From Armatimonadota bacterium (GTDB lineage: Bacteria > Armatimonadota > SYMT01), in contig JAWLHY010000005.1 of assembly GCA_041690135.1 (NCBI GenBank), forward strand, positions 340,106 through 404,105: a stretch of 64,000 nucleotides of DNA. Reading direction: 5' to 3'. A program made the position numbers and the translations under genes. The notes below the pieces were generated by a model. It worked only from the letters and a program-made list of their open reading frames with translations. It was not told the DNA's origin and searched no databases. This document shows, one piece after another, positions 30,201 through 64,000 of this stretch; the first letter of the stretch is position 1, and the number at the start of each line of letters is the position of its first letter.

Positions 30201-30979
30201 CGGTAAGGCCAGACGGAGCGGGGCCGGTCCTTTTCGTAGCCGTTGGTGTCCGCGTAGCGGGCCAGGTCCAGCCATTTGCGCGCCCACCGCTCGCCGTAGT
30301 GGGGAGAGGCGAGGAGGCGGTCTACCACCTTCTCATAGGCGTTCGGGCTCGGGTCCTTGATGAAAGCGACGGTTTCTTCCGGCGTGGGCGGGATGCCGAT
30401 CAGGTCGAGGTAGACACGGCGGATCAGCGTGTATCGATCCGCGGGCGGCGATGGCTGGAGACCCTGCTTTTCCATCCGCGCCAGCACGAAGTGGTCGATG
30501 CCGCTGCGCGGCCAGTCTTTCCGCTTCACCGGAGGCAGCGCGGGAAGTTTTGGCGCCACGAACGCCCAGTGGGGCCGGTACTCCGCGCCTTCCGCTATCC
30601 ATCGGCGTAGAACCTCCTTGTCTCGCTCCGAGAGGGGGTTCTTGGTGGCCGGCGGAGGCATAACAAGGGCCTCGTCCTTCGACAGGATCCGCTCTACCAG
30701 GCTGCTCTGGTGCGGCTTTCCCGGGACGATGGCCTTGAGCGCGAGGGCGGAGGTGCGGTCATCCAGCCGAAGGCCGGCCTCGCGGGTCTTGTCGTCGGGG
30801 CCATGGCATTTGAAGCAGTGGCGGGAGAGGACGGGCCGCACGTCCCGGTTGAAGTCGACGCCGGGTGTGGCCGGCTTCTTGGGCGCCCCCTGCGGCACTC
30901 CTTTCGGCGCCCCCAGGGTCGGAACCGTTGCCACTGCCGCCAAACCGACCAACGCACCGGCAATCCACGCTCGCATCAT
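27239..30979 (-). CDS. PSCyt/DUF1549/DUF1553 (PSD1) large secreted protein
   Basis: 1246 aa. Signal peptide, cytochrome-like [19 protein letters not shown] (PSCyt) motif, [11 protein letters not shown] (DUF1549) and the long C-terminal DUF1553 region. Confidence 0.8.
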
Positions 30980-44600: not shown

Positions 44601-44923
44601 TCCACGTTGCGGGGAATCACCACGCCGATGGGCACCTGGCGGTAGTTCGAGGCGTCCGTGGCGTAGAGCGCGCGGCTGCCCGGATCGAACCGCAATTCTC
44701 CGTCCAGCAGCGATTCCAACTCTTGCTCCAGGCGGTCGGCGGCGATCTCACGCCGGCTCGAGCGATTGGCGGGGGCCGTGGAAGCGTTCGGCAGGACGGG
44801 AAGCGGTTCCGGAGCGGTGGTTCCGGATTCCTGGCGGGTGGTGGCGGACATGCTCTCTCCCTTCGCGCGCGCCAGCCACTCGCCCGGGCGGACCCGTCGC
44901 GGTGGCCGGCGGTGGTTCGTCAC
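41678..44923 (-). CDS. FAD-linked oxidase fused to 4Fe-4S and CCG domains (YdiJ-like), paralog 2
   Basis: 1081 aa, same domain order as 2847..5927: FAD PCMH domain (GGGTSIAGQ), CLSCKGCKQECP, C-terminal CCG motifs. Lacks the EG/QK-rich insertion. Confidence 0.85.
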   Translation of the reverse strand: MTNHRRPPRRVRPGEWLARAKGESMSATTRQESGTTAPEPLPVLPNASTAPANRSSRREIAADRLEQELESLLDGELRFDPGSRALYATDASNYRQVPIGVVIPRNVEDVVATVGAARRYGAPLLARGGGTSIAGQCCNVAVLMDFSKYLNGVLEIDPERRLARVQAGCVLDTLRKAAREHDLTFGPDPATHRWCTLGGMVGNNSCGVHSVMARMAGLGSRTSDNIHEMEILTYDGVRMRVGPTSEEELERIIREGGRKGEIYGRLKALRDRYADLIRERFPKLPRRVSGYNLDELLPENGFNVARALTGTESTCVVVLEVTTHLIPLPRERVLLLLGYPDVYQAADHVTEVLEFQPTGLEGIDGKFIEDLRKKDLNRKEICLFPEGNGWLLAEFGGNTVEEARERACRLMEKLRDREDAPSVKLFDDPEQQEMIWDVRENGLGATSHVPGERENWEGWEDSAVPPERVGHYLRDLHKLLERYDYHTSVYGHFGDGCIHARIDFDLKTAEGIRKWRSFLDEASDLVIGYGGSLSGEHGDGQARGELLPKLFGEELMEAFREFKAIWDPEGKMNPGKVINADPITTNLRYGAAYLQPELKTHFQFPSDHFSFGYAMERCVGVGKCRKEDVGTMCPSYMATREEMHTTRGRARLLFEMLQGDPLEHGWQSEHVKESLELCLSCKGCKQECPVQVDMATYKAEFLAHYFEGKRRPRQAYIFGFIHWWARLASLLPGMANFVAHAPGLRDLMKRAGGIAPDRELPAFAPQTFKQWFQKRAGARNQASARGRDSRRGPVILWPDTFNNHFHPEIAQAAVEVLEAAGFEVRVPQRDFCCGRPLYDWGFLDTAKQWLRQILTELQPEIQAGVPVVCLEPSCMSVFREELTNLFPNHEDAMRLQRQTFLLGEFLRERAPDFELPDLTRQAVVHGHCHHKATAGLDADRELFEAMGLDFQVLNSGCCGMAGAFGFEPGDKYEVSMQCGERVLLPAVREAPKDALIITDGFSCHEQIRQTTDREALHLAQVLRMALRQDEPVPRDYPESAFDRLEEDAADKAAATLRTAAIVGTGAVLGAGLVWALQRRRK

Positions 44924-50972: not shown

Positions 50973-53777
50973 TCATGTGGGCAATGCGCCCGGCGCGAGA
51001 AGCCAATTCCAGTCCGTCTGGGTGAAGGAACCAGTGCGGAACCGTTCTCGCAGAGCGTGGACGTCGGGAGCGAGGTTGGGGACCGCTTCCTCTGCGGCGA
51101 CCGCTTCGGCGTGGGGCATGGCGTCGGCGGCGAGGTCTGCGAGCGTCAGCACAGGAAGGCTACAGGTACCGCTGCGTACGAGCTGCTGCACGGCAGTGAT
51201 GACTGCAATCTCCTGGGGCAGCTCGGCATGGAGGTTGCGTGCGAGGAAACGGCCGCCGACCTCAGGAGCGTTTACGGCGCCAGCGGAGCGGAGCGGAACC
51301 GTGCCGTCTCCGCGAGTGTTGGCGGTGCCAAATAGGTTGGCGACGGTGGGGTGCCGTTGGCTGACGACCAGGTAGGCACGCGTCAGCAGCGGACTGCCGC
51401 TGATCTTGCCCTTCAGCGCGCGGCTGCGCTTGAGGTGCAACTCGGAGGGCGCCAACTGTGGATCCGGCCAGCCGTTGGTGCGGTAGAGGGGGTGCGCGTC
51501 CCCGAAAACGGCGGGGTCTGGCAGCATGTCGAGCAGGCCGGAGAGCGAGCAGGCCATCAGCTGGAAATCGCGAACGGTATCGTTCCGTGATAGGAACGCG
51601 AGCTTCTTGAGGGTATCGTAGGTGCCGAGCACGGCCTGCATCGACGCATAGCTCCCGTGCAGGGGGGAGCCCAGCAGCACTGCGCTCTCCACCCGATCGC
51701 TCCATTCCCGGTGCCGGGCCGCGTAGAGGCAGGCCACCAGACCACCCATCGAGTGGGCGACGAGCGCGAACCTTTTGTGCGGACGCTGGGCGGCGAGTTC
51801 CTCGATGAACCGGTGGAGACTGTCCGCCAGTGCTTCGATCGGCTTGCGCCAATCGTAGGAGAACTCGTTGACTACGAACCCGGCGTTGCGCCAAGTTCGG
51901 GAGGCGCGGGCGTAGGTGAGCCGGAGCATGCCGTCCGGCTTGAGCACCTGCCCCGAGGTGGCTTCGCGCACGCCGTCCGGATCGAGCGAGAGGCGCTCGG
52001 CCAGATCGCCCGCGAAGAACGCCAGGGGGTTGATCCAGAGCCGCCCGCCCATGCCGGCGGTGCGGGCTAGGTGCCCGCCGAGGATGCCGTGGATGAAGAC
52101 GATCTCCGGCAGCGCGGGATCGGCGCGGCGCCCGAAGAGCCCTGACAGGAACGATTCCTCCAGGGCGACGGACTCCACCGTGGGCTCCCCGAGCGATACC
52201 AGGGTCAGTTCCCGGATGAGGGCATCAGCCTCCGCGGGCGGCAGCACCGCGTAGAGGCGCCGGGCCGTTTCGGCGGGATGGTCCTGCAGCTCGGCGGCGA
52301 TGGCCGCATCATCGGTCTGCTCGTACCAGGCGGTGGGCGAGACCGCTTCCGGCGCTGCTGCCGGGGTCAGCCCGAGGGACGCCGGCGCGGGCAACGGAGG
52401 ACCGGGCGCTGCTGGGGCCGGCGTGCCAGTCTCGCTCGCCGCCGGGTTGGAGCGGGCCGCGCGCCGCGTGTAGACGGTGGGACCGGAGCCGCGGTAGGTG
52501 TCCCAGTAACGGAGCCATTCCGGATCCGGCTGCTCCGGCGCGTCTTCCGGCACAGGGCTGAACCGGAAGCCCAGCGCCCGCAGGTAGGGATCTCGAGCCA
52601 GCTCCCAGGCGGGCACCGCCCAGTTGGTGAGCAGGTACTGCCCCGCGAAGTGGAGGCCGATCACCTCTCCCGTGAGCAGATCGAGGATCGCAGAGCCGGA
52701 GTTACCGGTTAGAGTGGAGCAGTCGTGCGTGAGCGCCTCCACCTCCGGGCGATTGAGGGGCGCAAAGCGGGAGAGCGGCTCCCGGCCGCCGTTCCGCACC
52801 ATGCCCAGGAGCCCGGGGAGGAGCCGCTTGCGGCCGTAGATTCCCCGGAACTCCCGGTCCTGGACCTCTACGTTGGAGAAGGGGTTCCGGTGCGGATAGC
52901 CCACGGTGACCACGTAGCGGCTCTCCAGCGGGCCGGCGGGGCGGACGGAGGCGAGGGTCAACGGGCGGGGCATCGCAGCCCCTAGCGGCGCCCGCACGGC
53001 CAGGACCGCGGCGTCCCAGTATGGGTGGATAAGGGCGACGTCTTCCACCTCCAGCAGCACTGGCGCCGGCTCCGGGGTGCCGGACGGGTGGACCTCACGG
53101 CGGGTGTCCAGAGCCGCCGCTCCGGGCCGGTAGGAGAGCGTACCGCTGCCGGGGTGCCCATGACCCGACGCGAACAGCTGCGCGACGTGCCGATTCGTCA
53201 GCAGCAGCCCCTCCCCCACGAAGAAGGCGGTGCCGCCGAACGGACGGAGCGGGTCCTGCGGCAGTTCCACGCGGCCAATGGCGGGGAGGGCGGCCTCCAG
53301 CAGTTCCCGCTCCCGGGGGCGGCCGAGGAATTCGAAAGGGAAGGCCGGCGTCTGGTACGTACCGCCGGTGACGTCGATGACGGGGCGCTCTCCGGGCAGG
53401 ATCACCTCTTCCAGCACTAACGCTTCCCGGGCGGTGAGTGGGTCCCCGTTCACCAGCTTGGTGACTACGTTCTGCGCGGTGCGGATCGTCTCGTCGGTAA
53501 GCCCTGGCGATGGGAGGGTGAAGGACTCGAAGGCCGCTTCCTCCCGGGCAGCCTGCTGCTGCCGGGACGTCAGCATCCGGGCGACGCTTTCCTCATTGAT
53601 CGGCCGCGCGGGTGGGAGCAGAGCCGGCGCGCTTCCTTCCGCCGGGATCCCCTCTTCTTCTCCCCGCTGGAATCGCTCGTGGAAGGCCTGCGCGGGCCGA
53701 TCCGAAGGGATTTTGCGTACCTGCTCGAAGTAGCGCAGGAGACGCTGCTGGTGGGCAGGAGAGTACGGATCGCTCAT
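50973..53777 (-). CDS. Multidomain putative effector: N-terminal helical adaptor, trypsin-like (S1) serine peptidase domain, Pro/Ala-rich linker, C-terminal alpha/beta-hydrolase (LCAT/PGAP1-like lipase) domain
   Basis: Start set at ATG 53777 (MSDPYSP..., RBS AAAGGA); the ORF track start is 53876. Peptidase region GGTAFFVGEGLLLTNRHV (His) ... TGNSGSAILD (Ser). Lipase region ...FALVAHSMGGLVACLYA (GxSxG nucleophile elbow). Confidence 0.7.
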   Translation of the reverse strand: MSDPYSPAHQQRLLRYFEQVRKIPSDRPAQAFHERFQRGEEEGIPAEGSAPALLPPARPINEESVARMLTSRQQQAAREEAAFESFTLPSPGLTDETIRTAQNVVTKLVNGDPLTAREALVLEEVILPGERPVIDVTGGTYQTPAFPFEFLGRPRERELLEAALPAIGRVELPQDPLRPFGGTAFFVGEGLLLTNRHVAQLFASGHGHPGSGTLSYRPGAAALDTRREVHPSGTPEPAPVLLEVEDVALIHPYWDAAVLAVRAPLGAAMPRPLTLASVRPAGPLESRYVVTVGYPHRNPFSNVEVQDREFRGIYGRKRLLPGLLGMVRNGGREPLSRFAPLNRPEVEALTHDCSTLTGNSGSAILDLLTGEVIGLHFAGQYLLTNWAVPAWELARDPYLRALGFRFSPVPEDAPEQPDPEWLRYWDTYRGSGPTVYTRRAARSNPAASETGTPAPAAPGPPLPAPASLGLTPAAAPEAVSPTAWYEQTDDAAIAAELQDHPAETARRLYAVLPPAEADALIRELTLVSLGEPTVESVALEESFLSGLFGRRADPALPEIVFIHGILGGHLARTAGMGGRLWINPLAFFAGDLAERLSLDPDGVREATSGQVLKPDGMLRLTYARASRTWRNAGFVVNEFSYDWRKPIEALADSLHRFIEELAAQRPHKRFALVAHSMGGLVACLYAARHREWSDRVESAVLLGSPLHGSYASMQAVLGTYDTLKKLAFLSRNDTVRDFQLMACSLSGLLDMLPDPAVFGDAHPLYRTNGWPDPQLAPSELHLKRSRALKGKISGSPLLTRAYLVVSQRHPTVANLFGTANTRGDGTVPLRSAGAVNAPEVGGRFLARNLHAELPQEIAVITAVQQLVRSGTCSLPVLTLADLAADAMPHAEAVAAEEAVPNLAPDVHALRERFRTGSFTQTDWNWLLAPGALPT

Positions 53778-53926
53778 GGATCTATCCTTTAAGTTACAGG
53801 CGAACCGGCGACCGGGCGTGGGGACGGCCTGAGGCGACCGGCAATGCAGGGAACTTTCTACCGGATGGTTGAACAATAGAGGGTGTCATTCCTCGCTCTG
53901 GGGGTAACGAGGCTGCCCGTATTGAG

Positions 53927-54341: not shown

Positions 54342-55526
54342 ATGCCCACACTCACGCGAGCTCAAGAAGATAACCTGATCCGGATCCTCTCCCGGCATCC
54401 GGATTTCCAGACGGCGGAGGACCGGCTGCGGTTGCTGCTGCAGATCATCCCAACCGCGGCGGACGGGGACGAGACCGCGTACCACGTGAACCTGGGAAAG
54501 GATGCCATCCGGGTCGCGGAGGGATTGCTCGCGCAGCTCAAGTTCGAGGGGGTGGGCCCGGACGGGGTCCACCGCCTGCGGCACATGGTAGCCGGTCTGC
54601 GGGAGAAGGTGCGAGACGAGCGGGACCGGGGACGGCTAGCGGGGATGCTCACCTACCTGGACCAGCACACCCCGGCGGTGGCGCCGCCCCCGCCGCCCCC
54701 GGCGCCGCTCCGCCCGGACCCGCAGCCGCGGCTGGACCCCGCGGACTGGCGGGGCAAGAATTCCGACGCACCGCCGTATGAGAAGGTGGTGCGGGTAAAT
54801 ACGCTGCGGCAGTTCTATCTGCTGGAGCGTGCGGTGCCTGCTTCACGCGGGGTGTTCCGCATCGAGGGACGTCCACCCGGCACGGAAGGCGAGCCGGCGG
54901 CTTCCACCGGCTTCCTCATCGCCCGCGGTGTGGAGACGGCCCCCGGCGGACCAAGGGTGGCGCTAGCGATGACGAACCACCACGTGATCGCCACTCTGGA
55001 AGAGTTCCCCGGTTATGAGTGCTGGTTCAATTACCGGCTTGACCTGGACGGCCGCGAGCCGGTGCCCTCGCCGCAAGGGTTCTGCAAGCTGCAGCCGCTG
55101 CCGCTGGCCGAGTGGTTCTTTACGGACGCGGGGCTGGACGTAACGGTGTTTGCGCTCGACGATGCGGTGGTGCCGGCGAATGCGGTGGCTCTGGGGGTGC
55201 GAGAGGCCCGCCCACTGGAGGGGGCGCGGGTGCCGATCATTCAGCACCCGAACGGGGAGTACCTGCAGATCTCGTTCCAGAGCAACTTCATCGCGTACGC
55301 GAACGACGAGATCCTGCAATACACCACTACTACCCTGCCCGGCTCTTCGGGCTCCCCTGTGTTCAATGAGCGGTTCGAGGTGATCGGGATCCACTCAATG
55401 GGCGGGGACCTGCCCCACCCCGGTCAGCCAGGACTGACTACCCTAATCAACCAGGGCACTTCAATCAAGGCGATCCTGGCGGTTCTGCCGGGGGCTATCC
55501 GTGGGCGGGTTATGGTGCTGGGGTAA
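54342..55526 (+). CDS. Trypsin-like (S1) serine peptidase with N-terminal alpha-helical adaptor (EAD-like) domain
   Basis: N-terminal ~110-aa helical region (EDNLIRILSRHPDFQTAEDRLRLLLQIIP...). Pro-rich linker (PPPPPAPLRPDPQPRLDP). Catalytic domain with LAMTNHHVI (His) and TLPGSSGSPVF (Ser). Confidence 0.75.
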   Translation: MPTLTRAQEDNLIRILSRHPDFQTAEDRLRLLLQIIPTAADGDETAYHVNLGKDAIRVAEGLLAQLKFEGVGPDGVHRLRHMVAGLREKVRDERDRGRLAGMLTYLDQHTPAVAPPPPPPAPLRPDPQPRLDPADWRGKNSDAPPYEKVVRVNTLRQFYLLERAVPASRGVFRIEGRPPGTEGEPAASTGFLIARGVETAPGGPRVALAMTNHHVIATLEEFPGYECWFNYRLDLDGREPVPSPQGFCKLQPLPLAEWFFTDAGLDVTVFALDDAVVPANAVALGVREARPLEGARVPIIQHPNGEYLQISFQSNFIAYANDEILQYTTTTLPGSSGSPVFNERFEVIGIHSMGGDLPHPGQPGLTTLINQGTSIKAILAVLPGAIRGRVMVLG

Positions 55527-55728: not shown

Positions 55729-57408
55729 TTGAGTGGAGGGGGAGGTGTTAGCCCGGCTGACGGACAATTAACACTTGGGAGACAGCGGCTAATCCGAATA
55801 AGCCGCGACGAGGCACTGTCGTCTCCGGTACTGGTCTTGAGTTCGAACGTGCTCTTTCCACTGTTACAACCGGCCGACGAACGGCTGCTCCGCGACTATC
55901 TGCTCTCCGTGCTGGCACGAACCGGAGACGAGCCGGAGCGGCGCCGGGCCTTGTGCAAATACTTGCCGGACTCGGTAGCCCAGCTGCCGGCGGAGGCGTG
56001 GCTGACCGAGAGGCGGCTGCGACTGGACCGATCCCACGCTGAGATCCTGGAGCAGTTCTTCGAAGCGCTTCAGAGCCATCCGCCGGCGCTGTTGGCGCAC
56101 TTGGAAGTGCTGAGCCAGAGCGTGAAGGACGGGCCGACACGCGAGGAGTTCGCGCGGATGCGGGACGGGCTGCGGTTGGCCCTCGATCCGCTGACGGAGG
56201 CGCAGCGCCTTCTGGACGCCGCCGCTTCGGCGGACCCGGACGTCCTTCCGGACGCACTGGCCGCCGGTCTCTGGAAGGCGCTGGGGAAGCGCGAGTCGGG
56301 TACGTTCTGGCAGGCGGTGGCGCTGCTGGTGCCGCATCCCGCCCGCACTTACCAGGAGTCGGGACAGGAAGTGCTGCGCCTGCCGCTAGTGGTGGCGCTG
56401 GAGCGAACCGCGGCCCGGGTGGGCTTGTCCGGGCCAGACCGGACCCAGTATGGCGAACTCGTCCAGCAGGCGGTGGAGCGTCTTTACCCGCCGCCTCCCA
56501 AAGCCCCGGAGGCAGACCAAACAGCGCCGGGGCCTACCGCGCCGGCCTTCGATCCGATCACCGTGTACGTGCTGGCACTCGGCTCTAACACCCTGAGCAC
56601 GGCGGACACGCGCTACCGGCTGTGGTACACGGATCCGCAGGGAGACCGCGGCGCCCGAGACCTGACCGGCACCCTGAAGGAACTGCAGGCCGGCTTCTCC
56701 GCCTGGATCAGTGACGTCCTGTTCGAGTGGTCCGGCGATACCCCACTGGTGGAGTTTGTGCTGCCCGAGGAGTGCCTGGAGTGGGACGTGGAGCGTTGGG
56801 AAGTGGCCCTCAACCCGCGCAACCCAGCCACCGGAAAGCCGATTGGCACGGCGTTTCCGGTGGTGCTGCGGAACTGGGGGCGGTACGAAGCTCGGCCGCA
56901 CATCAAGCGCCTGGAGCGCCGCTGCAAGGAGTTGAAGGGCACCGGCACCCTGTACTGGTGCCACGAGCCGGCTCATGAGCCGGGCTTGCCGGTCTACCTG
57001 GACCACTCGGACTGCCGGACGGTGCTCTACCTGGGCGCGGGCTACCCCTTGCAGCGGACCGGCGGTAGAAACCTCTGGCTGGCGGTACTCCGGAACGGGG
57101 TTCCAGTAGTGATCTGGCGCCGCACCGCCGGCAGCGGAGCGGTGCCCATCCCGGACCAACTGGAGAAGCTACTCCATCAGGCACAGCGTCTCCACCCGTT
57201 CAACGAGCTGCCAAGTAAGATCAAGGACTGGCGCAGCCTGGTGATCCAGGAGCCACCGCAGTACGACGACACGGCGGATGAGGTCTCCCTGCTCTGGGAG
57301 AACCCCTACCGGCTCCCCGCCGCCCCACCCCTGCCCGAGGGGGCACCCACCGCACCCGACGAAGCTCGCCCGGCGCCGGCGCCCACCAGCACGGGGCGGA
57401 TCGATTGA
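55729..57408 (+). CDS. VMAP-like protein (vWA-MoxR-associated protein position) with N-terminal EAD-like helical motif
   Basis: 559-aa ORF immediately upstream of and overlapping (4 nt) the MoxR ATPase gene. There is no in-frame ATG near the 5' end, so TTG 55729 or a downstream GTG is the likely start. The N-terminus DERLLRDYLLSVLARTGDEPERRRAL resembles the N-termini of both peptidase effectors. No enzymatic motif recognised. Confidence 0.55.
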   Translation: MSGGGGVSPADGQLTLGRQRLIRISRDEALSSPVLVLSSNVLFPLLQPADERLLRDYLLSVLARTGDEPERRRALCKYLPDSVAQLPAEAWLTERRLRLDRSHAEILEQFFEALQSHPPALLAHLEVLSQSVKDGPTREEFARMRDGLRLALDPLTEAQRLLDAAASADPDVLPDALAAGLWKALGKRESGTFWQAVALLVPHPARTYQESGQEVLRLPLVVALERTAARVGLSGPDRTQYGELVQQAVERLYPPPPKAPEADQTAPGPTAPAFDPITVYVLALGSNTLSTADTRYRLWYTDPQGDRGARDLTGTLKELQAGFSAWISDVLFEWSGDTPLVEFVLPEECLEWDVERWEVALNPRNPATGKPIGTAFPVVLRNWGRYEARPHIKRLERRCKELKGTGTLYWCHEPAHEPGLPVYLDHSDCRTVLYLGAGYPLQRTGGRNLWLAVLRNGVPVVIWRRTAGSGAVPIPDQLEKLLHQAQRLHPFNELPSKIKDWRSLVIQEPPQYDDTADEVSLLWENPYRLPAAPPLPEGAPTAPDEARPAPAPTSTGRID

Positions 57409-57425
57409 AAACACAGGTATCTCCC

Positions 57426-58574
57426 ATGCAGCTCGAGCCCCCTACAGCTACTCCCAATCCGGACGTGCCCGCCGACTGGTGGGCATTCCACGGTGACCGC
57501 AACGCCGATGAGAAGATCGCGGCGGAGCGACGGTCCCGGCTGGGCCCCGCCCCGCCCTGGCGGCCGTCCCGGGCCGTGCCGGACAACACCCTCTACACGC
57601 CCCGTCCGGAGCCGCTGGGAGAGACCTATCGCTGCGGGAAGGCGGTGATCGAGATGGTCAACGCCGCTCTCGTGCTGCGGCGGCCGCTGTTGATCACCGG
57701 TGAGCCGGGCAGCGGGAAGTCGTCCCTGGCGTATGCCGTGGCGCGGGAACTGGGCCTGGGCCGCGTGCTGCGGTGGAACATTACCAGCCGCACCACCCTG
57801 CGGGACGGTCTGTACAGCTACGATGCCCTCGGGCGGTTGCAGGCTTCCGACCTGGGCGGCGACAGTGACCAGGTGGCGGAGATCGGGCAGTTCATCACCC
57901 TGGGGCCGCTGGGCACCGCGCTGCTGCCCTGGTCCACACCGCGGGTGCTGCTGATCGATGAGATCGATAAGAGCGACGTGGACCTCCCGAACGACCTGCT
58001 GCATGTGTTCGAAGAGGGCGAGTTCGAGATCCCGGAACTGGTGCGGCATCCGGATCCGGACGACCGGGGCGTGCGGGTGTGGCCGGACAAGGCGGACCGT
58101 CCGCCCCTGGACCGAACGAACCCGGTGCCGCCGGAGCAGTACCAGGTAACGGTGCACCGGGGCCGGGTGCAGTGCAGCCAGTTCCCCTTCGTGGTGCTGA
58201 CCAGCAACGCCGAGCGAGAGTTTCCGCCGGCGTTCCTGCGCCGGTGCCTGCGCCTGCGGCTGCCCCGACCCGGCCGCGACCAACTGAAGGAGATCGTGCG
58301 GGCCCACTTCTCCAATCCGGAGCGGCCGGTGCCCTCCGAGACGCAGCTCGACGAGCTGATCAGCCGGTTTCTCAAGCGGCGGGACGTGGGCGCCCTGGCC
58401 AACGACCAGCTGCTGCAGGCGCTGTTCCTGCGGCTGCGGGGCGGGGAGGCGATCGACAGCAACCCGGAAGATGACCTCCGGAACCTGATCAACCGGCTGC
58501 TCCATCCCCTGAACCAGCCGGAGGCGGCGGTGGAGCCGGACGAGGACGCGGATGACGGCTGCGGGCGCGGATAA
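57426..58574 (+). CDS. MoxR-family AAA+ ATPase
   Basis: Walker A LLITGEPGSGKSSLAYAVA. Walker B VLLIDEIDKSD. Sensor-1 VVLTSNAEREF. Arg finger PPAFLRRCLRLRL. ATG 57426 is chosen; a TTG at 57405 is the alternative. Confidence 0.85.
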   Translation: MQLEPPTATPNPDVPADWWAFHGDRNADEKIAAERRSRLGPAPPWRPSRAVPDNTLYTPRPEPLGETYRCGKAVIEMVNAALVLRRPLLITGEPGSGKSSLAYAVARELGLGRVLRWNITSRTTLRDGLYSYDALGRLQASDLGGDSDQVAEIGQFITLGPLGTALLPWSTPRVLLIDEIDKSDVDLPNDLLHVFEEGEFEIPELVRHPDPDDRGVRVWPDKADRPPLDRTNPVPPEQYQVTVHRGRVQCSQFPFVVLTSNAEREFPPAFLRRCLRLRLPRPGRDQLKEIVRAHFSNPERPVPSETQLDELISRFLKRRDVGALANDQLLQALFLRLRGGEAIDSNPEDDLRNLINRLLHPLNQPEAAVEPDEDADDGCGRG

Positions 58575-61500
58575 GTCGCCATCGGCGCCGGAATCCCTGA
58601 TCCAGTTGCTCGACTGCCTGAGCGGGCTGGAAACCCGCCTGCTCGCCGCGGAATTGGCGGACGTGCTCTGGCTGGCCCAGCGGCTGCCGGAGCGGCAGGC
58701 ACCTTCCCGGTCCGGGGAGGCGGCCGAGGCACCGGCAACGGAGGAGACGGAGAGCCCCCGGGATTCGGCCCGGTCCGAGGCCGGATCGCCCGACGGCACG
58801 CCTGCCCACACGGACGCCGACTCGGGTACTAACGCGGAGGTCGGACAGGAGAGGGAACGTCCACCGGGATCTGTCCCACCGACGGACGCCGGGCAGCCGG
58901 AGGACGAGCGGATCCGACTATTTCCAGGCCGTCCCAACTCCCCCGAGCAGACGGGCGCGGGCGAGATGCCTTCTTCCTCATTCCAGGGCACGGCAGCCCG
59001 CGCCCTCCCCCGGACCCGGCAGATCCTGCGGGCCCTCCGCCCACTCGCGGGCCGGGTCCCCTCGCCCCGGCGGGACGAGCTGGAGGTGGACGTCGAGGCA
59101 ACGCTCGAGCGGATTACGGAGGGGCTGCTGGCTGCCCGCGCTCGTTCGGAAGCCAGTGGGGCGGCGCGCCGCAACCGTCCCATTCCCCGCACGCCCGTGT
59201 TGCGGCCGGCCGAGGTGCGGCCCTACGAGCTGCACCTGGTGGTGGATACCAGCGCCAGCATGGCGGTGTGGGAGGAGGCTGCGGGAGAGCTGGCACAGCT
59301 GCTGGTGGGCCTGGGCAGCTTCTCGGACGTGCGGGTCTGGTACCTAGACACCCAGTCTGGCGGGGAGCCGCCGCTCTACGCGGGAGTCCGGTGCGGCGGG
59401 GGGACCCAACGCGGGGAGCGGCGGTCCGGTGCCGAGCTGCGGGGCGGGGGCGGCAGCATTCCGGGTGCCGGGGCGCGGCTGGTGCTGGTGCTGACTGACG
59501 GCCTGGGGCCAGCATGGTGGGATGGCCGGGCGCTGGACCTGCTGGCCTCCTGGGCGGACACGGGCCGGGTAACGCTGCTCCAGACGCTGCCGGAGCGGCT
59601 CTGGGGCCGCGCGGTGCACGGTGTACCTCGCTGGCTGGTGGGCGCCCACGAGGCCGGTGTCCCGAACCGGCGGCTGCTCACGGCTCCCCGGCCGGGCGTC
59701 CGCAGCGCGGCGCCGGCGAACGCCCCCCGGTATGATCGAGACCCGGAACGAGTTTACGTTCCGGTGGTCGCGCTAGACCCGGACCCGCTGCACACCTGGG
59801 CGCGACTGATGACCGGACGCGGCGGGGTGTGGCTGCCGGCGTTTCGCATGCGCCTGAAGTCCTCACCGGCCCAAACCGTCGCGCCTCTCGAGCCCGTAGA
59901 CCCGGAGGAGCCGGAAACCGAGGCGGCGCGGGCAGCCCGGATGGTACGCGAGTTCCGGGCTGGCGCCCCCTGGGAGGCACGCCGCCTGGCGGAACTGTTC
60001 GCGGCCGTGGGCACCCTCACCATACCGGTGATGCGCGCCATCCAGGATGCGATGGTGGCCGGCTCCGGGCTGGAGGCACTGGCGGAGGTGCTGGCCAGCG
60101 GCCTGCTGGAAGCCCGCGAAGCTGCGGGCGGGACGGTCTACGCTTTCCGTGGAGAGCAGCACGGGATAGCCCTGCGCCAGCGGCTGTGGCAGCGCGCAAG
60201 CGTTCCGGACACGCTGCGGGCCATGCAGACGGCACTGAACGAGCTCCAGCGGAGCGTGGGGGATTTTCTGGCCGGAATGAACGCCGAAGGTGCAGCCCAG
60301 CCGCTCCAGGTGCTTGATCCACAGGGCCTCCAGCGGCTGTCGGCGGACCACGCCCTGGCGCCGTTCGCGGCGGTGGCGGCGGAGTACCTGGAGTCGCTGG
60401 GCGGGCAGTACGTGCGGAGCGCCCGGACGTGGCAGACAGGCATCGCGTTACCGCCGCATCAAGGAGACGCCGGCGATCCCACGTCGTATTCGCTGAACGA
60501 TCTGATCGCGTTGTCCCGGAACCTGGACGGACAGGGCCCGTGGCTGCAGGGGAAGGTACCGCCCATCCATCTCCTCACCGCAGCGGAGAAGCTCGGGGAG
60601 CCGATCAGCGCGGTAATGCACCGGCTGGGCCGGTTTGAAGCCCGGTTCGAGCTGGAGCTGCCGGTGCTCGACGACCTCGAGCTGACGGCACTTGATGAGC
60701 CGCTGCCTAACGAAGCCGATCGGATCGTGCTGTCCCACGGTCTGGACGGCCAGACGCCCTGGCTGCACGGGCGGGTCGGGAAAGAACACCTCCTGGCAGC
60801 GGCCGTCCAACTGCGAGAGCCCGTGGTGACCGTGCGGCAGCGACTGGAGCGGTTCGCGGCCCTGTTCGAGCTAGAGCTCCCGGCACCCGGCGACCCCTCC
60901 CCCACCCAACCCCTGCGGGTCTTCGTCTCGGCGTCGTTCCGGTATTGCCACCAGGAACGGCGGGCGATCTTGGCGGAGTTGGCCCGGCGCCCGGAGATCG
61001 TGGACACCAGTTGGGAAGCACTGCCGGCGGACCAGCGGGACCGGCAGCACCGGCTGCCGGTGGTGGCCGCATGCGATCTCTTCCTGCTGCTCCCGGGGGA
61101 GGGGCCCAGCGCGGGGCTGGAGGCGGAATACGCCGCAGCATTGGAGCACGGGAAGACCTGCCTCGCATACTTCCACCGGGACGCGGCACCGCTGGACGAA
61201 ACCACGCGGGAGTTCTGGAAGAGACTCCGGGACCGGCACGGCGTTCGGACTTATGGCAGCTCGGAAGAACTGATCCGGCAGGTCTCACTCGACCTCGATT
61301 TTGAGCTGGCGCGGCTGACCGGGAAAGTTCAGGAGCACCCGATGGAGGTGGTGGTCCTGTTCTCGGATGGGCAATGCGCGGCTCTGCCGGTAGGCGTCGG
61401 CGTGTTGGACGCGGCGTTCCACGTGGACCCCGAGCTAGGGCTGCGGATGAACGGCGCGCGCGTGAACGGCGAGGCGGTGCCGCTGAGCTATCAACTCCGT

Positions 61501-64000
61501 CAACGGGATCAGGTGGAGCTGGTCACGACCCCCCACAGTTATCCGTCCCGGGAGTGGCTCGACTGGGTTCAGACCGAGCGGGCGCGGCACGCCATCCGGG
61601 ACTGGCTGCGCCGCTACCAGGTGTATGTGGCTGCCGGCGAGATTCCCGACATCCCGGGCCTACAGTTTGAGTGGGCGGTCCGGTCAGACATCCCCGAGAG
61701 AGAGCGAGCAGCAGTCCTCCGCGAATGCGGCCTCTTCATAGCCACATTCCGGCCGCCTGGGTTTGACTACTGGGAAGGGATCCGGGACGGAGATGTGTCG
61801 GTGGTCCGTGGCGCAGTAGGACAGCACCTTCCAGAGTTCGCTCTGGCCCGGCGGTTGGGACTCCGCTGCCTCATCTACCTGTATGACGATGTGGACGGCC
61901 GCAAACCCGCGGGAATGCTCACAGCGGAAACACTCTATCGCTGCGCTAATGTCTCAGAGTTGCGTGAGGCCATGCGCGGCGACTTCCAGGCGGCTGTGGC
62001 AAACCAATGGCCGCTAGAGGGGATTCGAGACGGACGAGAGCCCTTGCTCCGCGACCTGTACCAAATGCTAGGGCTACCCCCACTACGCAGTGATCTGGAG
62101 ACCTTCGAGCTCTCGAGGTTCGCTGGCGAGCGAGGATGGTTAGTCCAGGACTTGAACCGTCCAAATCTGGCGATGCTGGTGTCCGCCGTGCGGGGTTTGC
62201 AGAAGGCACCCGCGGCCGTATGGGCGTTGCCACTGCCGCGAACGAACGTCGAGAATGAACTTCTAAACCGCCTGGCAGGCTGGCTGCGCCAGGAACCGGC
62301 AAGCTCTCTGCGCGCGCTGCAGCGTTTTTGGGGAATGTGCGGTCGGGCGGCGCAGCAACCCACTGACGGGCGGGCGGTGGCGGGTTACCTTCTAGCGTTG
62401 GTGTGGTTGGGGCAACTAGTAGAGGGGAACTTTGGGAGGGCCGATCCCGCTCTGGTACTGTCCCCGCTGAATCCCCCCAACCTGCGCGATTTCCTCGTTC
62501 TCGTGGGGGGACGGCAGCCGGCGGCGCTCGATTTCCGCATTGCCGTGGATGGTGTGACAGTGGCGCACCTCCCCCGCCTTCGTCTCGACACACCCGAATC
62601 GGAGGTGAGGCGGCAGGCGCTGGAGGTTCCCGAGGTCGTTGAGCGTATCGTGAACCGAAACGTCCGCTCTGTCGAGGTGAGCTTCGGGACTGGGGTGACA
62701 ATTTCCACCGAGCCGGCATCCCACCCATCATTGACTGGATGCCGTGTCCTCTGGTGTGATCCCAAGCAAGACCGTGTCAATAGCAGGGAGATAAGCTGGC
62801 TCCAGCAACACGGCGCCGTGATTGCCCGCGTACCGCCCAGCCACGTTCAGCTAGCATTAGGGAGTGGGCTTCCATACGACGCGCTGATTACGAGCATGGG
62901 CGGCGTGTTGCCAGAGGAAGATAGTCTGGGCCTTCATGTGGTTAGGATCGCGAGGCGGCTACGGCCGGAACTCCCGGTGATCCTGTTTACCCACCGCACC
63001 GTGCCATCGGTTCAGGAGGCCAGAGAGGCGGGAGTTGCGCTGATCACCCCCAAAGTTGAGGTGATCCTGCGGGAACTCCAAACGCTGGTCGACCGCCGAA
63101 CCCCGACCCTGCCCGAGGATTCGGAGGGGTTCTACACGGAGCGCGGTCTTTGCGACGTGATCGACCGGTACCAACTCCGGAGTGGGCGCCAGGAAGCCGA
63201 CGCGGTGCTCACCCTGCTGCTGCTGTTCCGGACGGAGACGCAGCGGACGTGGTTGGCAACCACCCACCGGCATCTCTACATCTTGCTGGATGATGCGGAG
63301 ACGCGCGCTACGGGACCGGATACGGAGCGCGTGATCCAGGAAGAACTGACGCTGAAGGAGGCCCAGCCCGTCTTCAGCAGCGAAGCACGGGAGTGGCTGG
63401 AAACGCGTCTTCTCCACATCGGCCGGGCGCGGAACTGGCATTACACGCTCTCCCTCCACCCGCGTGCGCAGGACCTCGAGGTGACTGTCCGCGAGTTGAT
63501 TCTTAATGCGAGACACGGTGATCTTAACCCAACATACCGGCAGCTCTTGCTGCTGGCTGCCGAATACGAGGCCATCCAAGCGACACAAGAGGCCGGTGGC
63601 GAGCGCTCACGCCGTTCGGTATCGGTCTACAAGAGGATGCAGCGATCCAGCCAGGCAGCTGACAGGGCACTGCTTTCCCGCCTAGCTACCAGCGAGAGCC
63701 CGGGCGAACGGTTGGCGGCGGTAGCCATCCTTCAGGAGAAGCCAGCTTCGGAGTATCTGCACTGGCTAGCTGCCCGCGTGCATGAGGACCAGGCGTTTAT
63801 CGGGTATCAGGCCGCGCTGGCCCTAACCACGGCGGCCGAGGAACTCAATTCGGTCTACCTGGAAGAGGTAGGCACAAGCATCCGCTCGGCTCGGGATACA
63901 CTGACCTCAGAGGTGAAGGCCGGCACTGACACGGATCGCTACCGCGTACTCGAGCGAGGACTCGAGGTCCTCGTACAGCGCGAGCGGCAGGATGAGGCGC
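58552..64000 (+). CDS. Giant vWA-domain protein (>1816 aa, 3' end outside window) with DUF4062/TIR-like, TGS, receiver-like and HEAT-like modules; vWA partner of the MoxR ATPase
   Basis: A frame-1 ORF opens after TGA 58510-12. The first ATG is 58552, overlapping the MoxR stop by 23 nt. I found no stop codon through position 64000; it is absent from the ORF track because it is open-ended. MIDAS-type vWA motif LHLVVDTSASMAVW at ~59233-59274. DUF4062-like RVFVSASFRYCHQERRAILAEL (~60913). TGS-like VVVLFSDGQCAALPVGVGVLDAAFHV...ARVNGEAVPLSYQLRQRDQVELVT (~61342-61530). CheY-like CRVLWCDPKQD...PVILFTH (~62740-63000). HEAT-like C-terminal repeats. Confidence 0.75.
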   Translation, partial: MTAAGADKSPSAPESLIQLLDCLSGLETRLLAAELADVLWLAQRLPERQAPSRSGEAAEAPATEETESPRDSARSEAGSPDGTPAHTDADSGTNAEVGQERERPPGSVPPTDAGQPEDERIRLFPGRPNSPEQTGAGEMPSSSFQGTAARALPRTRQILRALRPLAGRVPSPRRDELEVDVEATLERITEGLLAARARSEASGAARRNRPIPRTPVLRPAEVRPYELHLVVDTSASMAVWEEAAGELAQLLVGLGSFSDVRVWYLDTQSGGEPPLYAGVRCGGGTQRGERRSGAELRGGGGSIPGAGARLVLVLTDGLGPAWWDGRALDLLASWADTGRVTLLQTLPERLWGRAVHGVPRWLVGAHEAGVPNRRLLTAPRPGVRSAAPANAPRYDRDPERVYVPVVALDPDPLHTWARLMTGRGGVWLPAFRMRLKSSPAQTVAPLEPVDPEEPETEAARAARMVREFRAGAPWEARRLAELFAAVGTLTIPVMRAIQDAMVAGSGLEALAEVLASGLLEAREAAGGTVYAFRGEQHGIALRQRLWQRASVPDTLRAMQTALNELQRSVGDFLAGMNAEGAAQPLQVLDPQGLQRLSADHALAPFAAVAAEYLESLGGQYVRSARTWQTGIALPPHQGDAGDPTSYSLNDLIALSRNLDGQGPWLQGKVPPIHLLTAAEKLGEPISAVMHRLGRFEARFELELPVLDDLELTALDEPLPNEADRIVLSHGLDGQTPWLHGRVGKEHLLAAAVQLREPVVTVRQRLERFAALFELELPAPGDPSPTQPLRVFVSASFRYCHQERRAILAELARRPEIVDTSWEALPADQRDRQHRLPVVAACDLFLLLPGEGPSAGLEAEYAAALEHGKTCLAYFHRDAAPLDETTREFWKRLRDRHGVRTYGSSEELIRQVSLDLDFELARLTGKVQEHPMEVVVLFSDGQCAALPVGVGVLDAAFHVDPELGLRMNGARVNGEAVPLSYQLRQRDQVELVTTPHSYPSREWLDWVQTERARHAIRDWLRRYQVYVAAGEIPDIPGLQFEWAVRSDIPERERAAVLRECGLFIATFRPPGFDYWEGIRDGDVSVVRGAVGQHLPEFALARRLGLRCLIYLYDDVDGRKPAGMLTAETLYRCANVSELREAMRGDFQAAVANQWPLEGIRDGREPLLRDLYQMLGLPPLRSDLETFELSRFAGERGWLVQDLNRPNLAMLVSAVRGLQKAPAAVWALPLPRTNVENELLNRLAGWLRQEPASSLRALQRFWGMCGRAAQQPTDGRAVAGYLLALVWLGQLVEGNFGRADPALVLSPLNPPNLRDFLVLVGGRQPAALDFRIAVDGVTVAHLPRLRLDTPESEVRRQALEVPEVVERIVNRNVRSVEVSFGTGVTISTEPASHPSLTGCRVLWCDPKQDRVNSREISWLQQHGAVIARVPPSHVQLALGSGLPYDALITSMGGVLPEEDSLGLHVVRIARRLRPELPVILFTHRTVPSVQEAREAGVALITPKVEVILRELQTLVDRRTPTLPEDSEGFYTERGLCDVIDRYQLRSGRQEADAVLTLLLLFRTETQRTWLATTHRHLYILLDDAETRATGPDTERVIQEELTLKEAQPVFSSEAREWLETRLLHIGRARNWHYTLSLHPRAQDLEVTVRELILNARHGDLNPTYRQLLLLAAEYEAIQATQEAGGERSRRSVSVYKRMQRSSQAADRALLSRLATSESPGERLAAVAILQEKPASEYLHWLAARVHEDQAFIGYQAALALTTAAEELNSVYLEEVGTSIRSARDTLTSEVKAGTDTDRYRVLERGLEVLVQRERQDEA

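What the first reader, a model, noticed from the sequence alone, without database searches (positions are those of the whole stretch)
58552..64000. Giant open-ended ORF missing from the ORF track: vWA + DUF4062/TIR-like + TGS + receiver-like + HEAT architecture
Translating frame 1 from ATG 58552 gave no stop codon through the window end, i.e. more than 1816 codons, with protein-like composition throughout. The ORF track shows only short GC-artifact ORFs here. The architecture combines an N-terminal Pro/Glu/Ala-rich low-complexity region and a vWA MIDAS domain (DTSASM). It then has a tandemly duplicated ~65-aa module, a DUF4062-like Rossmannoid (VFVSASFRYxxQER; this family is related to TIR/nucleoside-deoxyribosyltransferase folds) and a TGS domain (otherwise typical of RelA/SpoT, ThrRS and Obg-type GTPases). 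It also has a second Rossmann-like region, a CheY-like pseudo-receiver and HEAT-like repeats. A TGS domain fused to a vWA and a TIR-like module within a MoxR system is, to my knowledge, not a described combination.
Basis: seen in the sequence. Interest (0 to 1): 0.85.

Follow-up and report, generated by a model that had tools for sequence, protein, structure and literature searches.

The report
Giant vWA effector of VMAP system
The open reading frame is real and is the first two thirds of a 2771-residue protein, the vWA component of a MoxR-vWA-VMAP conflict (probable anti-phage) system of a kind described in 2020; it is unusually long and carries a domain array not seen in the relatives retrieved, but it is not a new kind of system.

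Summary
Frame 1 from ATG 58552 is open for 1816 codons to the window end, with a chance probability of about 3e-19. It is identical to the first 1816 residues of a 2771-aa protein predicted on a 461-kb NCBI contig.

The locus is a classical VMAP ternary system (Kaur et al. 2020). The operon runs VMAP-C protein, MoxR-like AAA+, then a SAV_2336-type vWA protein. An EAD8-trypsin gene and a divergent trypsin/alpha-beta-hydrolase gene sit beside it.

- The tandem modules are two wHTH-HSP90_Na-assoc domains.
- The TGS domain is RelA/SpoT-type.
- The HEAT-like module is real.
- The DUF4062-like module has moderate support and keeps the catalytic Glu-Tyr motif.
- The second Rossmann-like region is unresolved.

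The TGS has Asp at the tRNA-CCA-stacking His. Beyond the window lie HEAT repeats, a catalytically dead caspase domain, a TIR domain and a second HEAT-like module.

The claim that this combination is undescribed fails at the level of kind. The 2020 paper lists TGS, TIR/DRHyd/SLOG, receiver, HEAT and caspase among the vWA-fused domains. The exact architecture and the length are unmatched among the relatives retrieved. Verdict: a new member of a known kind, of modest interest.

The parts
58552..64000 (+). Giant ORF, open at the window end. It is the first 1816 of 2771 codons of the vWA component of a VMAP ternary system.
58645..60234 (+). SAV_2336 N-terminal domain (aa 32-561). It includes the vWA core (about aa 225-400), DTSAS at aa 232-236 and the second MIDAS Asp, D316.
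   Evidence: NCBIfam NF041121 at 312 bits. 111 family members at 28-36% identity. D232 is D/E in 19 of 19 sequences and D316 is invariant in 19 of 19. No vWA hit in PDB by sequence or profile.
60484..60882 (+). Two tandem wHTH-HSP90_Na-assoc domains (aa 645-703 and 719-777)
   Evidence: Pfam PF24410, E 1.2e-22, two stretches; pairwise alignment
60913..61326 (+). Module 1 (aa 788-925): a divergent DUF4062/NIR-type TIR-like domain. It has VFVSASF at the N-terminus and the candidate catalytic Glu E859 in GLEAEY.
   Evidence: Pfam DUF4062 at 18.7 bits, E 0.002, below the gathering score. hhalign against nine DUF4062 domains gives z 5.3 over shuffles. The best PDB hit is the CMP N-glycosidase 4jen at E 0.42, which is not significant. 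Motifs are taken from the 2026 preprints.
61342..61617 (+). RelA/SpoT-type TGS domain plus the first helix of the helical domain (aa 931-1022). Asp959 sits at the position of the CCA-stacking His432 of RelA.
   Evidence: Pfam TGS, E 3e-9, above the gathering score. TIGR00691, E 1.5e-16, partial match. PDB 5iqr RelA, E 4e-13. His to Asp substitution shown; role of H432 from PMC7797070.
61618..62031 (+). Module 2 (aa 1023-1160): unassigned alpha/beta region, possibly a degenerate duplicate of module 1, with an E-F motif at E1095
   Evidence: BLASTP against module 1, E 0.02 over the motif. hhalign z 3.6 against module 1 but z 1.0 against DUF4062. No Pfam hit. The best PDB hit is a SPOUT methyltransferase at E 0.08, not significant.
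62032..62736 (+). Unassigned region (aa 1161-1395), mostly helical. No homologue other than the protein itself appears among the 150 listed hits of the exhaustive search.
62743..63093 (+). Pseudo-receiver domain (aa 1398-1514). The fold is CheY-like. The acceptor Asp is replaced by Ser (ITSMGG) and the acidic pair DD is replaced by CD.
63139..63516 (+). Uncharacterised domain (aa 1530-1655): a helix, a seven-strand beta sandwich and a C-terminal helix (PH-like topology). It belongs to a conserved family also found in small membrane-anchored proteins, in a KAP NTPase and in another vWA protein.
63529..64000 (+). HEAT-like helical module (aa 1660-1816 and beyond). This widespread ~150-aa module occurs again at aa ~2462-2620 of the full protein.
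57405..58574 (+). MoxR-like AAA+ ATPase with Walker A GEPGSGKSS and Walker B LLIDEIDK
   Evidence: Pfam AAA, AAA_5 and bpMoxR; NCBIfam MadB_ATPase partial match; motifs
55729..57408 (+). VMAP protein. The VMAP-C domain lies at aa 296-526 and the N-terminal 295 aa are unassigned. The start codon is uncertain.
   Evidence: Pfam PF20028, E 3.3e-26
54342..55526 (+). EAD8 adaptor plus trypsin-like serine peptidase, with His, Asp and Ser all present
   Evidence: Pfam Trypsin_2, E 1.7e-15. EAD8 at 26.2 bits, just under the gathering score of 27.
50973..53876 (-). Divergently transcribed protein that fuses a trypsin-like peptidase to an alpha/beta hydrolase (AHSMGG nucleophile). It is probably an accessory peptidase of the system.
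   Evidence: Pfam Trypsin_2, E 3e-12; LCAT, Abhydrolase_1 and PGAP1; motifs. Its link to the system is inferred from adjacency and from the peptidase pairings described by Kaur et al..

Best explanation
The ORF encodes the vWA ('effector-carrying') subunit of a classical vWA-MoxR-VMAP ternary conflict system. The host is probably a planctomycete.

Shown: the operon VMAP-C protein, then MoxR-like AAA+ ATPase, then SAV_2336-type vWA protein, with overlapping stop and start codons. An EAD8-trypsin gene and a trypsin/alpha-beta-hydrolase gene flank it.

Shown: the vWA protein carries a very long accreted array of modules, in this order:
- two wHTH domains;
- a DUF4062-like TIR-like module that keeps the catalytic Glu;
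- a RelA-type TGS whose CCA-stacking His is Asp;
- an unresolved alpha/beta module;
- a helical region;
- a receiver domain without its acceptor Asp;
- a PH-like domain;
- a HEAT-like module;
- beyond the window, HEAT repeats, a caspase domain with both catalytic residues replaced, a TIR domain that keeps its Glu, a second HEAT-like module and a small C-terminal domain.

Inferred, following Kaur et al. 2020: in the resting state the MIDAS site of the vWA domain holds a peptide of the complex, and the array is inert. On infection the VMAP and its variable middle region sense an invader. The MoxR hexamer uses ATP to remodel the complex, and the associated trypsin-like peptidases cut linkers.

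The array then acts in two ways. The NADase-type modules (DUF4062-like and TIR) oligomerise on the HEAT-like scaffolds and deplete NAD+, giving abortive infection. The catalytically or functionally disabled copies of host modules (TGS, receiver, caspase) act as decoys or dominant-negative binders for invader proteins.
For: - Gene order and domains. Kaur et al. give the same strict gene order and the same list of fused domains.
- The family of the N-terminal region has diverse C-terminal effectors.
- Full-length protein and extra domains.
- Inactive caspase dyad, His to Arg and Cys to Ser, shown against 3bij and 4afr.
- Pseudo-receiver.
- TGS His432 to Asp.
- DUF4062-like module with the E-Y motif. 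DUF4062 was shown to be a Glu-dependent NADase in phage defence in three 2026 preprints.
- The TIR Glu column is conserved.
- The HEAT-like module is a recurrent partner of DUF4062, TIR_2 and SLOG heads. Of 84 proteins, 9, 8 and 3 respectively carry these heads.
Against: - No VMAP ternary system has been shown experimentally to defend against phage in the papers I read. The mechanism is a comparative-genomics proposal.
- The DUF4062 match is below Pfam's gathering score, and no confident structure could be obtained for aa 780-1395 (pLDDT 38.8).
- The vWA fold itself was not recovered from PDB by sequence or by profile.
- No cognate EAD8 was found on the VMAP, so the proposed EAD coupling of the trypsin is incomplete.
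- The locus lies among housekeeping genes (aconitase, MetRS), not in an evident defence island.
- PADLOC has no model that matches the giant protein or the VMAP.
Confidence: 0.6

Rival explanations
1. Same system, opposite wiring (the model of Dore et al. for DGR-linked VMAP systems). The C-terminal array of the vWA protein is the sensor, a string of baits: TGS, pseudo-receiver, dead caspase and HEAT repeats. Binding of an invader protein is relayed through MoxR to the VMAP and the trypsin and alpha/beta-hydrolase enzymes, and those enzymes are the real effectors.
For: - Three modules are disabled copies of host domains, which suits baits better than weapons.
- Both trypsin domains and the hydrolase keep their catalytic residues.
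- The alternative model is stated in the Dore et al. preprint 10.1101/2023.09.22.558884, also held as PMC10907252.
Against: - The array also holds two NADase-type modules that keep the catalytic Glu. These are classic outputs, not sensors.
- The VMAP here has no recognisable enzymatic N-terminal domain.
Confidence: 0.25
2. A ribosome- or tRNA-directed system. The RelA-type TGS brings the flanking TIR/NDT-like modules to the tRNA 3' end or to the ribosome, where they act on RNA or on NAD+ locally.
For: - The TGS plus first helix is clearly derived from a long RelA/SpoT protein.
- It is sandwiched between module 1 and module 2.
- Kaur et al. class TGS with the RNA-binding effector domains.
Against: - The His that stacks on the CCA end is Asp here, and the H432E mutant of RelA is not activated by deacylated tRNA.
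- In B. subtilis Rel, specific tRNA binding was seen with the TGS-Helical fragment and not with TGS alone. Only about 30 residues of the helical domain are kept here.
- Module 2 is not demonstrably a TIR-like domain.
Confidence: 0.07
3. A housekeeping MoxR-vWA chaperone pair of the RavA-ViaA or CoxD-CoxE type, or a decaying mosaic gene with no current function.
For: - MoxR-vWA pairs have many non-defence roles.
- The neighbouring genes are metabolic.
- Several modules are catalytically dead.
Against: - VMAP-C, EAD8, TIR, caspase and DUF4062-like domains are hallmarks of conflict systems.
- A 2771-codon frame kept open in 65-73% GC DNA, with a coding GC3 pattern, argues for selection.
- The motifs of MoxR and of the peptidases are intact.
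Confidence: 0.05

Closest known systems
vWA-MoxR-VMAP ('classical') ternary conflict systems, Kaur, Burroughs, Iyer and Aravind, eLife 2020 (PMC7159879)
   Same: The gene order VMAP, MoxR, vWA is the same. So are the VMAP-C domain, the SAV_2336-type vWA with both MIDAS aspartates, and the associated trypsin peptidases and EAD adaptor. The vWA C-terminus carries an accreted array that mixes nucleotide/NAD+ domains, RNA-binding domains, inactive enzymes and HEAT-type scaffolds.
   Different: At 2771 aa it is about twice the modal lengths reported (850-1450), and longer than all 111 relatives retrieved here, which are at most 1356 aa. None of those relatives carries DUF4062, TGS or wHTH-HSP90_Na-assoc. 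The caspase domain on the vWA protein is not matched by a recognisable caspase on the VMAP, and the alpha/beta hydrolase is fused to a trypsin in a divergent gene.
DUF4062/NIR TIR-like NADase defence proteins (Swarozyc, Evangelion, Vulcan, Vesta, Avs2; human TEP1), 2026 preprints
   Same: Module 1 shares the N-terminal VF-x-S-x-SF strand motif, the colinear domain layout and the Glu-Tyr catalytic motif. As in many stand-alone DUF4062 proteins, a HEAT-like module is present in the same polypeptide.
   Different: The match is below Pfam's threshold. The domain is internal to a giant vWA protein rather than an N-terminal head with its own sensor (AUX) domain. Activity is untested.
Long RelA/SpoT homologues (TGS domain)
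   Same: The TGS and the following conserved SRDWL...R..I..W helix align to E. coli RelA 406-499 (about 40% identity to the RelA/SpoT hits).
   Different: There are no hydrolase, synthetase, zinc-finger or ACT/RRM domains. The CCA-stacking His432 is Asp.
Polyvalent effector proteins and integrated-decoy immune receptors (analogy only)
   Same: Many unrelated modules sit in one polypeptide, and several are disabled copies of host proteins.
   Different: There is no STAND NTPase in this protein. Control is by a MoxR AAA+ and peptidases.

Membership tests
VMAP ternary system (Kaur et al. 2020) | Strict gene order: VMAP, then MoxR, then vWA | tested here: met
   55729-57408 (VMAP-C), 57405-58574 (AAA+) and 58552 onward (SAV_2336 N-terminal domain) lie on the same strand, with overlaps of 4 and 23 nt.
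VMAP ternary system (Kaur et al. 2020) | Third component with a VMAP-C domain | tested here: met
   PF20028, 93.1 bits against a cutoff of 27, E 3.3e-26
VMAP ternary system (Kaur et al. 2020) | MoxR-clade AAA+ ATPase | tested here: inconclusive
   AAA and AAA_5 score above cutoff. bpMoxR scores 26 against a cutoff of 27. Walker A and B are present. The clade-defining helix-2 insert and the arginine finger were not examined.
VMAP ternary system (Kaur et al. 2020) | vWA component with the two MIDAS aspartates | tested here: met
   NF041121 at 312 bits against a cutoff of 200. D232 and D316 are conserved. The vWA fold itself was not confirmed, as no PDB hit was found.
VMAP ternary system (Kaur et al. 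2020) | Variable C-terminal effector array on the vWA protein | tested here: met
VMAP ternary system (Kaur et al. 2020) | EAD coupling: the same EAD on a core component and on the adjacent effector or peptidase | tested here: not met
   EAD8 was found only on the trypsin protein, at 26.2 bits against a cutoff of 27. None was detected on the VMAP or on the other proteins. This is an optional feature of the family, not a defining one.
DUF4062 / NIR TIR-like NADase | Match to the Pfam PF13271 model at the gathering score | tested here: not met
   13.9 bits for the whole protein and 18.7 bits for the segment, against a cutoff of 24.7
DUF4062 / NIR TIR-like NADase | Colinear similarity over the whole domain to bona fide members | tested here: met
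   hhalign score 26.1 over 131 columns. 80 shuffles gave 12.8 +/- 2.5 with a maximum of 23.2. Simple shuffles overstate significance.
DUF4062 / NIR TIR-like NADase | Catalytic Glu in the E-Y motif | tested here: met
   E859-Y860 aligns with GTEEEY/F of the references. The motif is defined.
DUF4062 / NIR TIR-like NADase | TIR-like fold and NAD+ hydrolysis | not testable with these tools
   The single-sequence AF2 model was unusable at pLDDT 38.8. Activity needs an experiment.
TGS domain (RelA/SpoT type) | Pfam TGS at the gathering score, and similarity to RelA TGS | tested here: met
   37.1 bits against a cutoff of 22.2. PDB RelA chains, E 4e-13.
TGS domain (RelA/SpoT type) | His that stacks on the tRNA 3' CCA end (E. 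coli RelA H432) | tested here: not met
   Asp959 in the window protein, His in 5 of 5 RelA/SpoT references.
Long RelA/SpoT homologue | HD hydrolase and/or (p)ppGpp synthetase domains | tested here: not met
   Only positions 360-452 of TIGR00691 are matched, at 59.9 bits against a cutoff of 499. There are no RelA_SpoT or HD Pfam hits.
Response-regulator receiver domain | CheY-like (beta-alpha)5 fold | tested here: met
Response-regulator receiver domain | Phospho-acceptor Asp and the acidic pair | tested here: not met
   ITSMGG against ISDMG, and LWCDP against LWVDD, in the homologue P0020, whose domain matches Pfam Response_reg. It is therefore a pseudo-receiver.
Caspase (Peptidase_C14), outside the window | Catalytic His-Cys dyad | tested here: not met
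   Pfam C14, E 1.9e-14. However SGHG is AGRG and (S/C)CHSG is CSHSG in alignments to 3bij and 4afr.
TIR domain, outside the window | Pfam TIR_2 match and catalytic Glu | tested here: met
   TIR_2 at 53 bits against a cutoff of 28. The Glu column is conserved (NAEITY against RLEIAT, AQEITY). Activity is untested.

The most novel reading that the evidence does not exclude
The protein is a bacterial 'integrated-decoy array'. Disabled copies of central host modules serve as baits for phage proteins that target those hubs: the RelA TGS with its CCA-stacking His replaced, a receiver without its acceptor Asp, and a caspase without its dyad. Engagement of any bait is converted, through MoxR remodelling and trypsin cleavage, into NAD+ depletion by the DUF4062-like and TIR modules. 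This would be a single polypeptide that guards several host pathways at once.
Probability: 0.2. Interest if true: 0.6.

Novelty: new member of a known kind. Interest (0 to 1): 0.3.

Why it matters
If the reading is right, the locus is an extreme example of effector accretion in MoxR-vWA-VMAP systems. It has at least a dozen modules and is about twice the usual length.

It places a probable DUF4062-type TIR-like module, from a family shown only in 2026 to be an NADase, inside such a system and next to a canonical TIR. It also shows cleanly how host modules are taken up in disabled form: TGS His to Asp, receiver Asp to Ser, caspase His/Cys to Arg/Ser. That pattern supports the decoy idea of the 2020 paper and gives concrete point mutants to test.

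It does not open a new class of system. VMAP systems remain experimentally uncharacterised in the papers I read, so any single well-dissected example would be useful, but this one is large and comes from an unidentified, probably planctomycete, genome.

Tried and rejected
1. The word-index homology search with aa 780-1816 returned only four RelA/SpoT proteins, through the TGS. It did not return the protein itself. The search with module 1 alone returned nothing.
2. The source genome could not be found. The search for related loci and an exact 50-mer search of the GTDB representative genomes both found nothing. JGI metagenome contigs gave no relatives of aa 780-1395. The look-up of encoding contigs failed for the MoxR gene, for P0005 and for the EAD8-trypsin gene. 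The DNA downstream of the window was therefore not obtained, and the full protein sequence comes from P0005.
3. The AF2 single-sequence model of aa 780-1395 had pLDDT 38.8 and was not used for fold search.
4. An HMM built from nine closely related DUF4062 domains gave no score for module 1, because that subfamily is too narrow. hhalign with shuffle controls was used instead.
5. PDB sequence searches gave nothing useful here. Module 1 gave only CMP N-glycosidase at E 0.42. Module 2 gave only SPOUT methyltransferases at E of about 0.1. The vWA region gave nothing. A family profile hit only the FGS domains of cyanobacterial relatives. The SPOUT lead was rejected as not significant.
6. BLASTP of the EAD8-trypsin protein against the VMAP, run to look for a shared EAD, found nothing significant.
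8. PADLOC has no model for the giant protein or for the VMAP. Rfam and the tRNA scan of the window were empty. The held supplement of the 2020 paper has no TGS or DRHyd entries.
Full report
**Observation**

Frame 1 from ATG 58552 is open for 1816 codons to the end of the window. With the local base composition a stop is expected every 43 codons, so the chance of such a frame is about 3e-19. GC at codon position 3 (0.70-0.84) and at position 2 (0.44-0.60) is coding-like throughout.

An exhaustive HMMER search of 1.84 billion representative proteins with aa 1020-1816 returned P0005, a 2771-aa protein. Its first 1816 residues are identical to the window ORF. It is a singleton cluster from one NCBI contig of 461,486 bp, and eight other proteins of the window map to a contig of the same length. 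The gene is therefore real, has been called in public data, and runs about 2.9 kb past the window.

The ORF was missing from the ORF list only because ORFs that run off an end are not listed.

**Context**

Three genes lie on the same strand immediately upstream:
- an EAD8 plus trypsin-like peptidase (54342-55526);
- a protein with a VMAP-C domain (55729-57408; PF20028, E 3e-26);
- a MoxR-like AAA+ ATPase (57405-58574), with Walker A and B intact.

The last two overlap their downstream neighbours by 4 and 23 nt. A divergently transcribed 967-aa protein fuses a trypsin-like peptidase to an alpha/beta hydrolase (50973-53876).

The N-terminal 561 residues of the giant protein match NCBIfam SAV_2336_NTERM at 312 bits, against a cutoff of 200.

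This is the classical vWA-MoxR-VMAP ternary system of Kaur et al. 2020. That system is defined by the strict gene order VMAP, MoxR, vWA, and by a hypervariable C-terminal effector array on the vWA protein.

The rest of the window holds housekeeping genes (aconitase, MetRS). It also holds a PSCyt1/PSCyt2/PSD1 protein typical of planctomycetes, and Planctomycetes are one of the phyla in which these systems were reported.

**Anatomy inside the window**

*vWA region.* DTSAS is at aa 232-236 and the second MIDAS Asp at aa 316. In an alignment with 18 relatives, position 232 is Asp or Glu in all 19 sequences and position 316 is Asp in all 19. The vWA fold itself was not recovered from PDB by sequence or by profile. 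That assignment therefore rests on the family and on the 2020 paper.

*Tandem repeats.* The two ~60-aa repeats (aa 645-703 and 719-777) are Pfam wHTH-HSP90_Na-assoc domains (E 1e-22).

*Module 1 (aa 788-925).*
- It matches Pfam DUF4062 only below threshold: 18.7 bits, E 0.002, against a cutoff of 24.7.
- Nine bona fide DUF4062 proteins turned up among the homologues of the HEAT-like module. hhalign of module 1 against these aligns the whole domain colinearly: VFVSAS with VFVASP, CDLFLLL with YDIFIGI, GLEAEY with GTEEEY/F, and CLAYF with IMFYF. The score is 26.1, while 80 shuffles gave 12.8 +/- 2.5 with a maximum of 23.2.
- Three 2026 preprints show that DUF4062 is a TIR-like NADase whose activity and phage defence depend on the Glu of this E-Y motif. 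That residue is E859 here.

I regard module 1 as a probable, divergent DUF4062 domain.

*TGS (aa 931-1022).*
- It is above Pfam's cutoff and is specifically RelA/SpoT-like, including the first conserved helix after the domain.
- The residue that corresponds to RelA His432 is Asp959 here, and it is His in all five RelA/SpoT references. That His stacks on the tRNA CCA end, and the H432E mutant is not activated by deacylated tRNA.

*Module 2 (aa 1023-1160).* It has only weak colinear similarity to module 1 (BLASTP E 0.02; hhalign z 3.6). It has none to DUF4062 (z 1.0) and no family or PDB hit. It remains unassigned, as does aa 1161-1395.

*AF2 model of aa 1390-1816.* With a 43-row alignment the model reached pLDDT 91.7 and pTM 0.80. 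It shows three domains:
- A helix, a seven-strand sandwich and a C-terminal helix at aa 1530-1655. This is a PH-like topology, and the fold was not matched.
- A helical HEAT-like module from aa 1660.

**Beyond the window (from P0005)**

- HEAT_2 repeats at aa 1920-2005.
- A Peptidase_C14 domain (E 2e-14) in which the catalytic His is Arg and the Cys is Ser, in alignments to 3bij and 4afr.
- A TIR_2 domain (E 6e-14) that keeps the Glu column.
- A second copy of the HEAT-like module.
- An unassigned C-terminal domain.

**How common is this?**

The N-terminal 780 residues find 111 SAV_2336-family proteins at 28-36% identity. All are 1356 aa or shorter. They carry kinase, FGS, TIR, caspase, AAA, NB-ARC/TPR and other domains, but none carries DUF4062, TGS or wHTH-HSP90_Na-assoc.

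The region aa 1020-1395 has no relative other than the protein itself among the 150 listed hits of the exhaustive search. No relatives were found in GTDB representative genomes or in JGI metagenome contigs. The exact architecture is therefore unmatched among the relatives retrieved.

Such idiosyncratic accretion is the stated rule for this kind of system: 163 architectures and 86 domains among 1482 systems, most of them rare. The 2020 paper names TGS, TIR, DRHyd, SLOG, receiver, HEAT and mostly inactive caspases among them.

The length is unusual. The reported modes are 850-1450 residues.

**Mechanism**

Shown: the parts list, the intact motifs of MoxR and of both trypsins, the retained Glu in module 1 and in the TIR, and the disabled TGS, receiver and caspase.

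Inferred, following Kaur et al.: MoxR remodels a vWA-VMAP complex in response to sensing of an invader. The associated peptidases process the vWA protein. The array then acts through NAD+ depletion and through decoy or dominant-negative binding.

The HEAT-like module is a recurrent partner of DUF4062, TIR_2 and SLOG heads in stand-alone proteins. This fits a scaffold or oligomerisation role for NADase activation.

The main rival keeps the same parts but reverses the flow. The array senses and the peptidases execute. A tRNA- or ribosome-directed reading is weakened by the His-to-Asp change in the TGS.

In the papers I read, none of these models has experimental support for any VMAP system.

**Verdict**

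The domain reading is largely right, with two soft spots (module 1 moderate, module 2 unresolved). The novelty claim is wrong at the level of kind. This is a new, unusually large member of a known kind, and the interest is modest.

Noticed in passing
window 63529-64000 (aa 1660-1816) and aa ~2462-2620 of P0005; homologues P0006-P0154: The ~150-aa HEAT-like module has the consensus LA.EYE..R..M..G..RT..ME....MR.LA...SPG.RLAA...LQ..P...YL.WLA.R...EKPF.GYHAA.AL and belongs to a large family (227 representative proteins at E below 1e-10). It has no dedicated Pfam model. In stand-alone proteins it follows DUF4062 (9 of 84), TIR_2 (8 of 84), SLOG (3 of 84) or a membrane domain with the motif NTNLE.ISDWLTKIIVGLGL. 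It looks like a common partner of NADase-type heads.
   Followed up: partly
window 63139-63516 (aa 1530-1655); P0032, P0087, P0090, P0091, P0020 and others: This is a conserved uncharacterised domain with the motifs LLLFRT..QRTWL..T...L.C.LDD..TR and IGPR.NWLYS..LHPD. It is predicted with high confidence as a seven-strand sandwich with a C-terminal helix. It occurs in ~200-aa proteins with an N-terminal membrane helix, at the C-terminus of a KAP-type P-loop NTPase (P0091), and after a receiver domain in another SAV_2336-type vWA protein (P0020). No Pfam model matches it.
   Followed up: partly
window 27239-30979 (-): A 1246-aa protein carries PSCyt1, PSCyt2 (DUF1549) and PSD1 (DUF1553), a combination typical of Planctomycetota. 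Nearly all window proteins are singletons at 90% identity, so the source is probably a poorly sampled planctomycete.
   Followed up: no
window 2847-5927 (-) and 41678-44923 (-): Two paralogous proteins of about 1000-1080 aa each combine an FAD-linked oxidase, a 4Fe-4S dicluster domain and CCG cysteine-rich domains. These are fused glycolate or D-lactate oxidase-like enzymes.
   Followed up: no
window 57306-59192 (-): A 628-aa antisense ORF overlaps the MoxR gene and the start of the giant gene. Together with many other ORFs of 100-300 aa on both strands, it is a high-GC artefact and not a gene.
   Followed up: no
window 31030-32589 (-): A mechanosensitive-channel domain is fused to a cyclic-nucleotide-binding domain. 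It is unrelated to the finding.
   Followed up: no
aa 16-42 and 152-185 of the giant protein (window about 58597-59106): The SAV_2336 family has two strongly conserved short motifs on either side of the Pro/Glu/Ala-rich low-complexity linker. One is an N-terminal helix (EE.AD.LWLA). The other is RALRPL.RRVPS....LDE.ATV, with invariant L152, L162, R163, P164, L165, D180 and T184. These could be docking or cleavage sites for MoxR, the VMAP or the peptidases.
   Followed up: no
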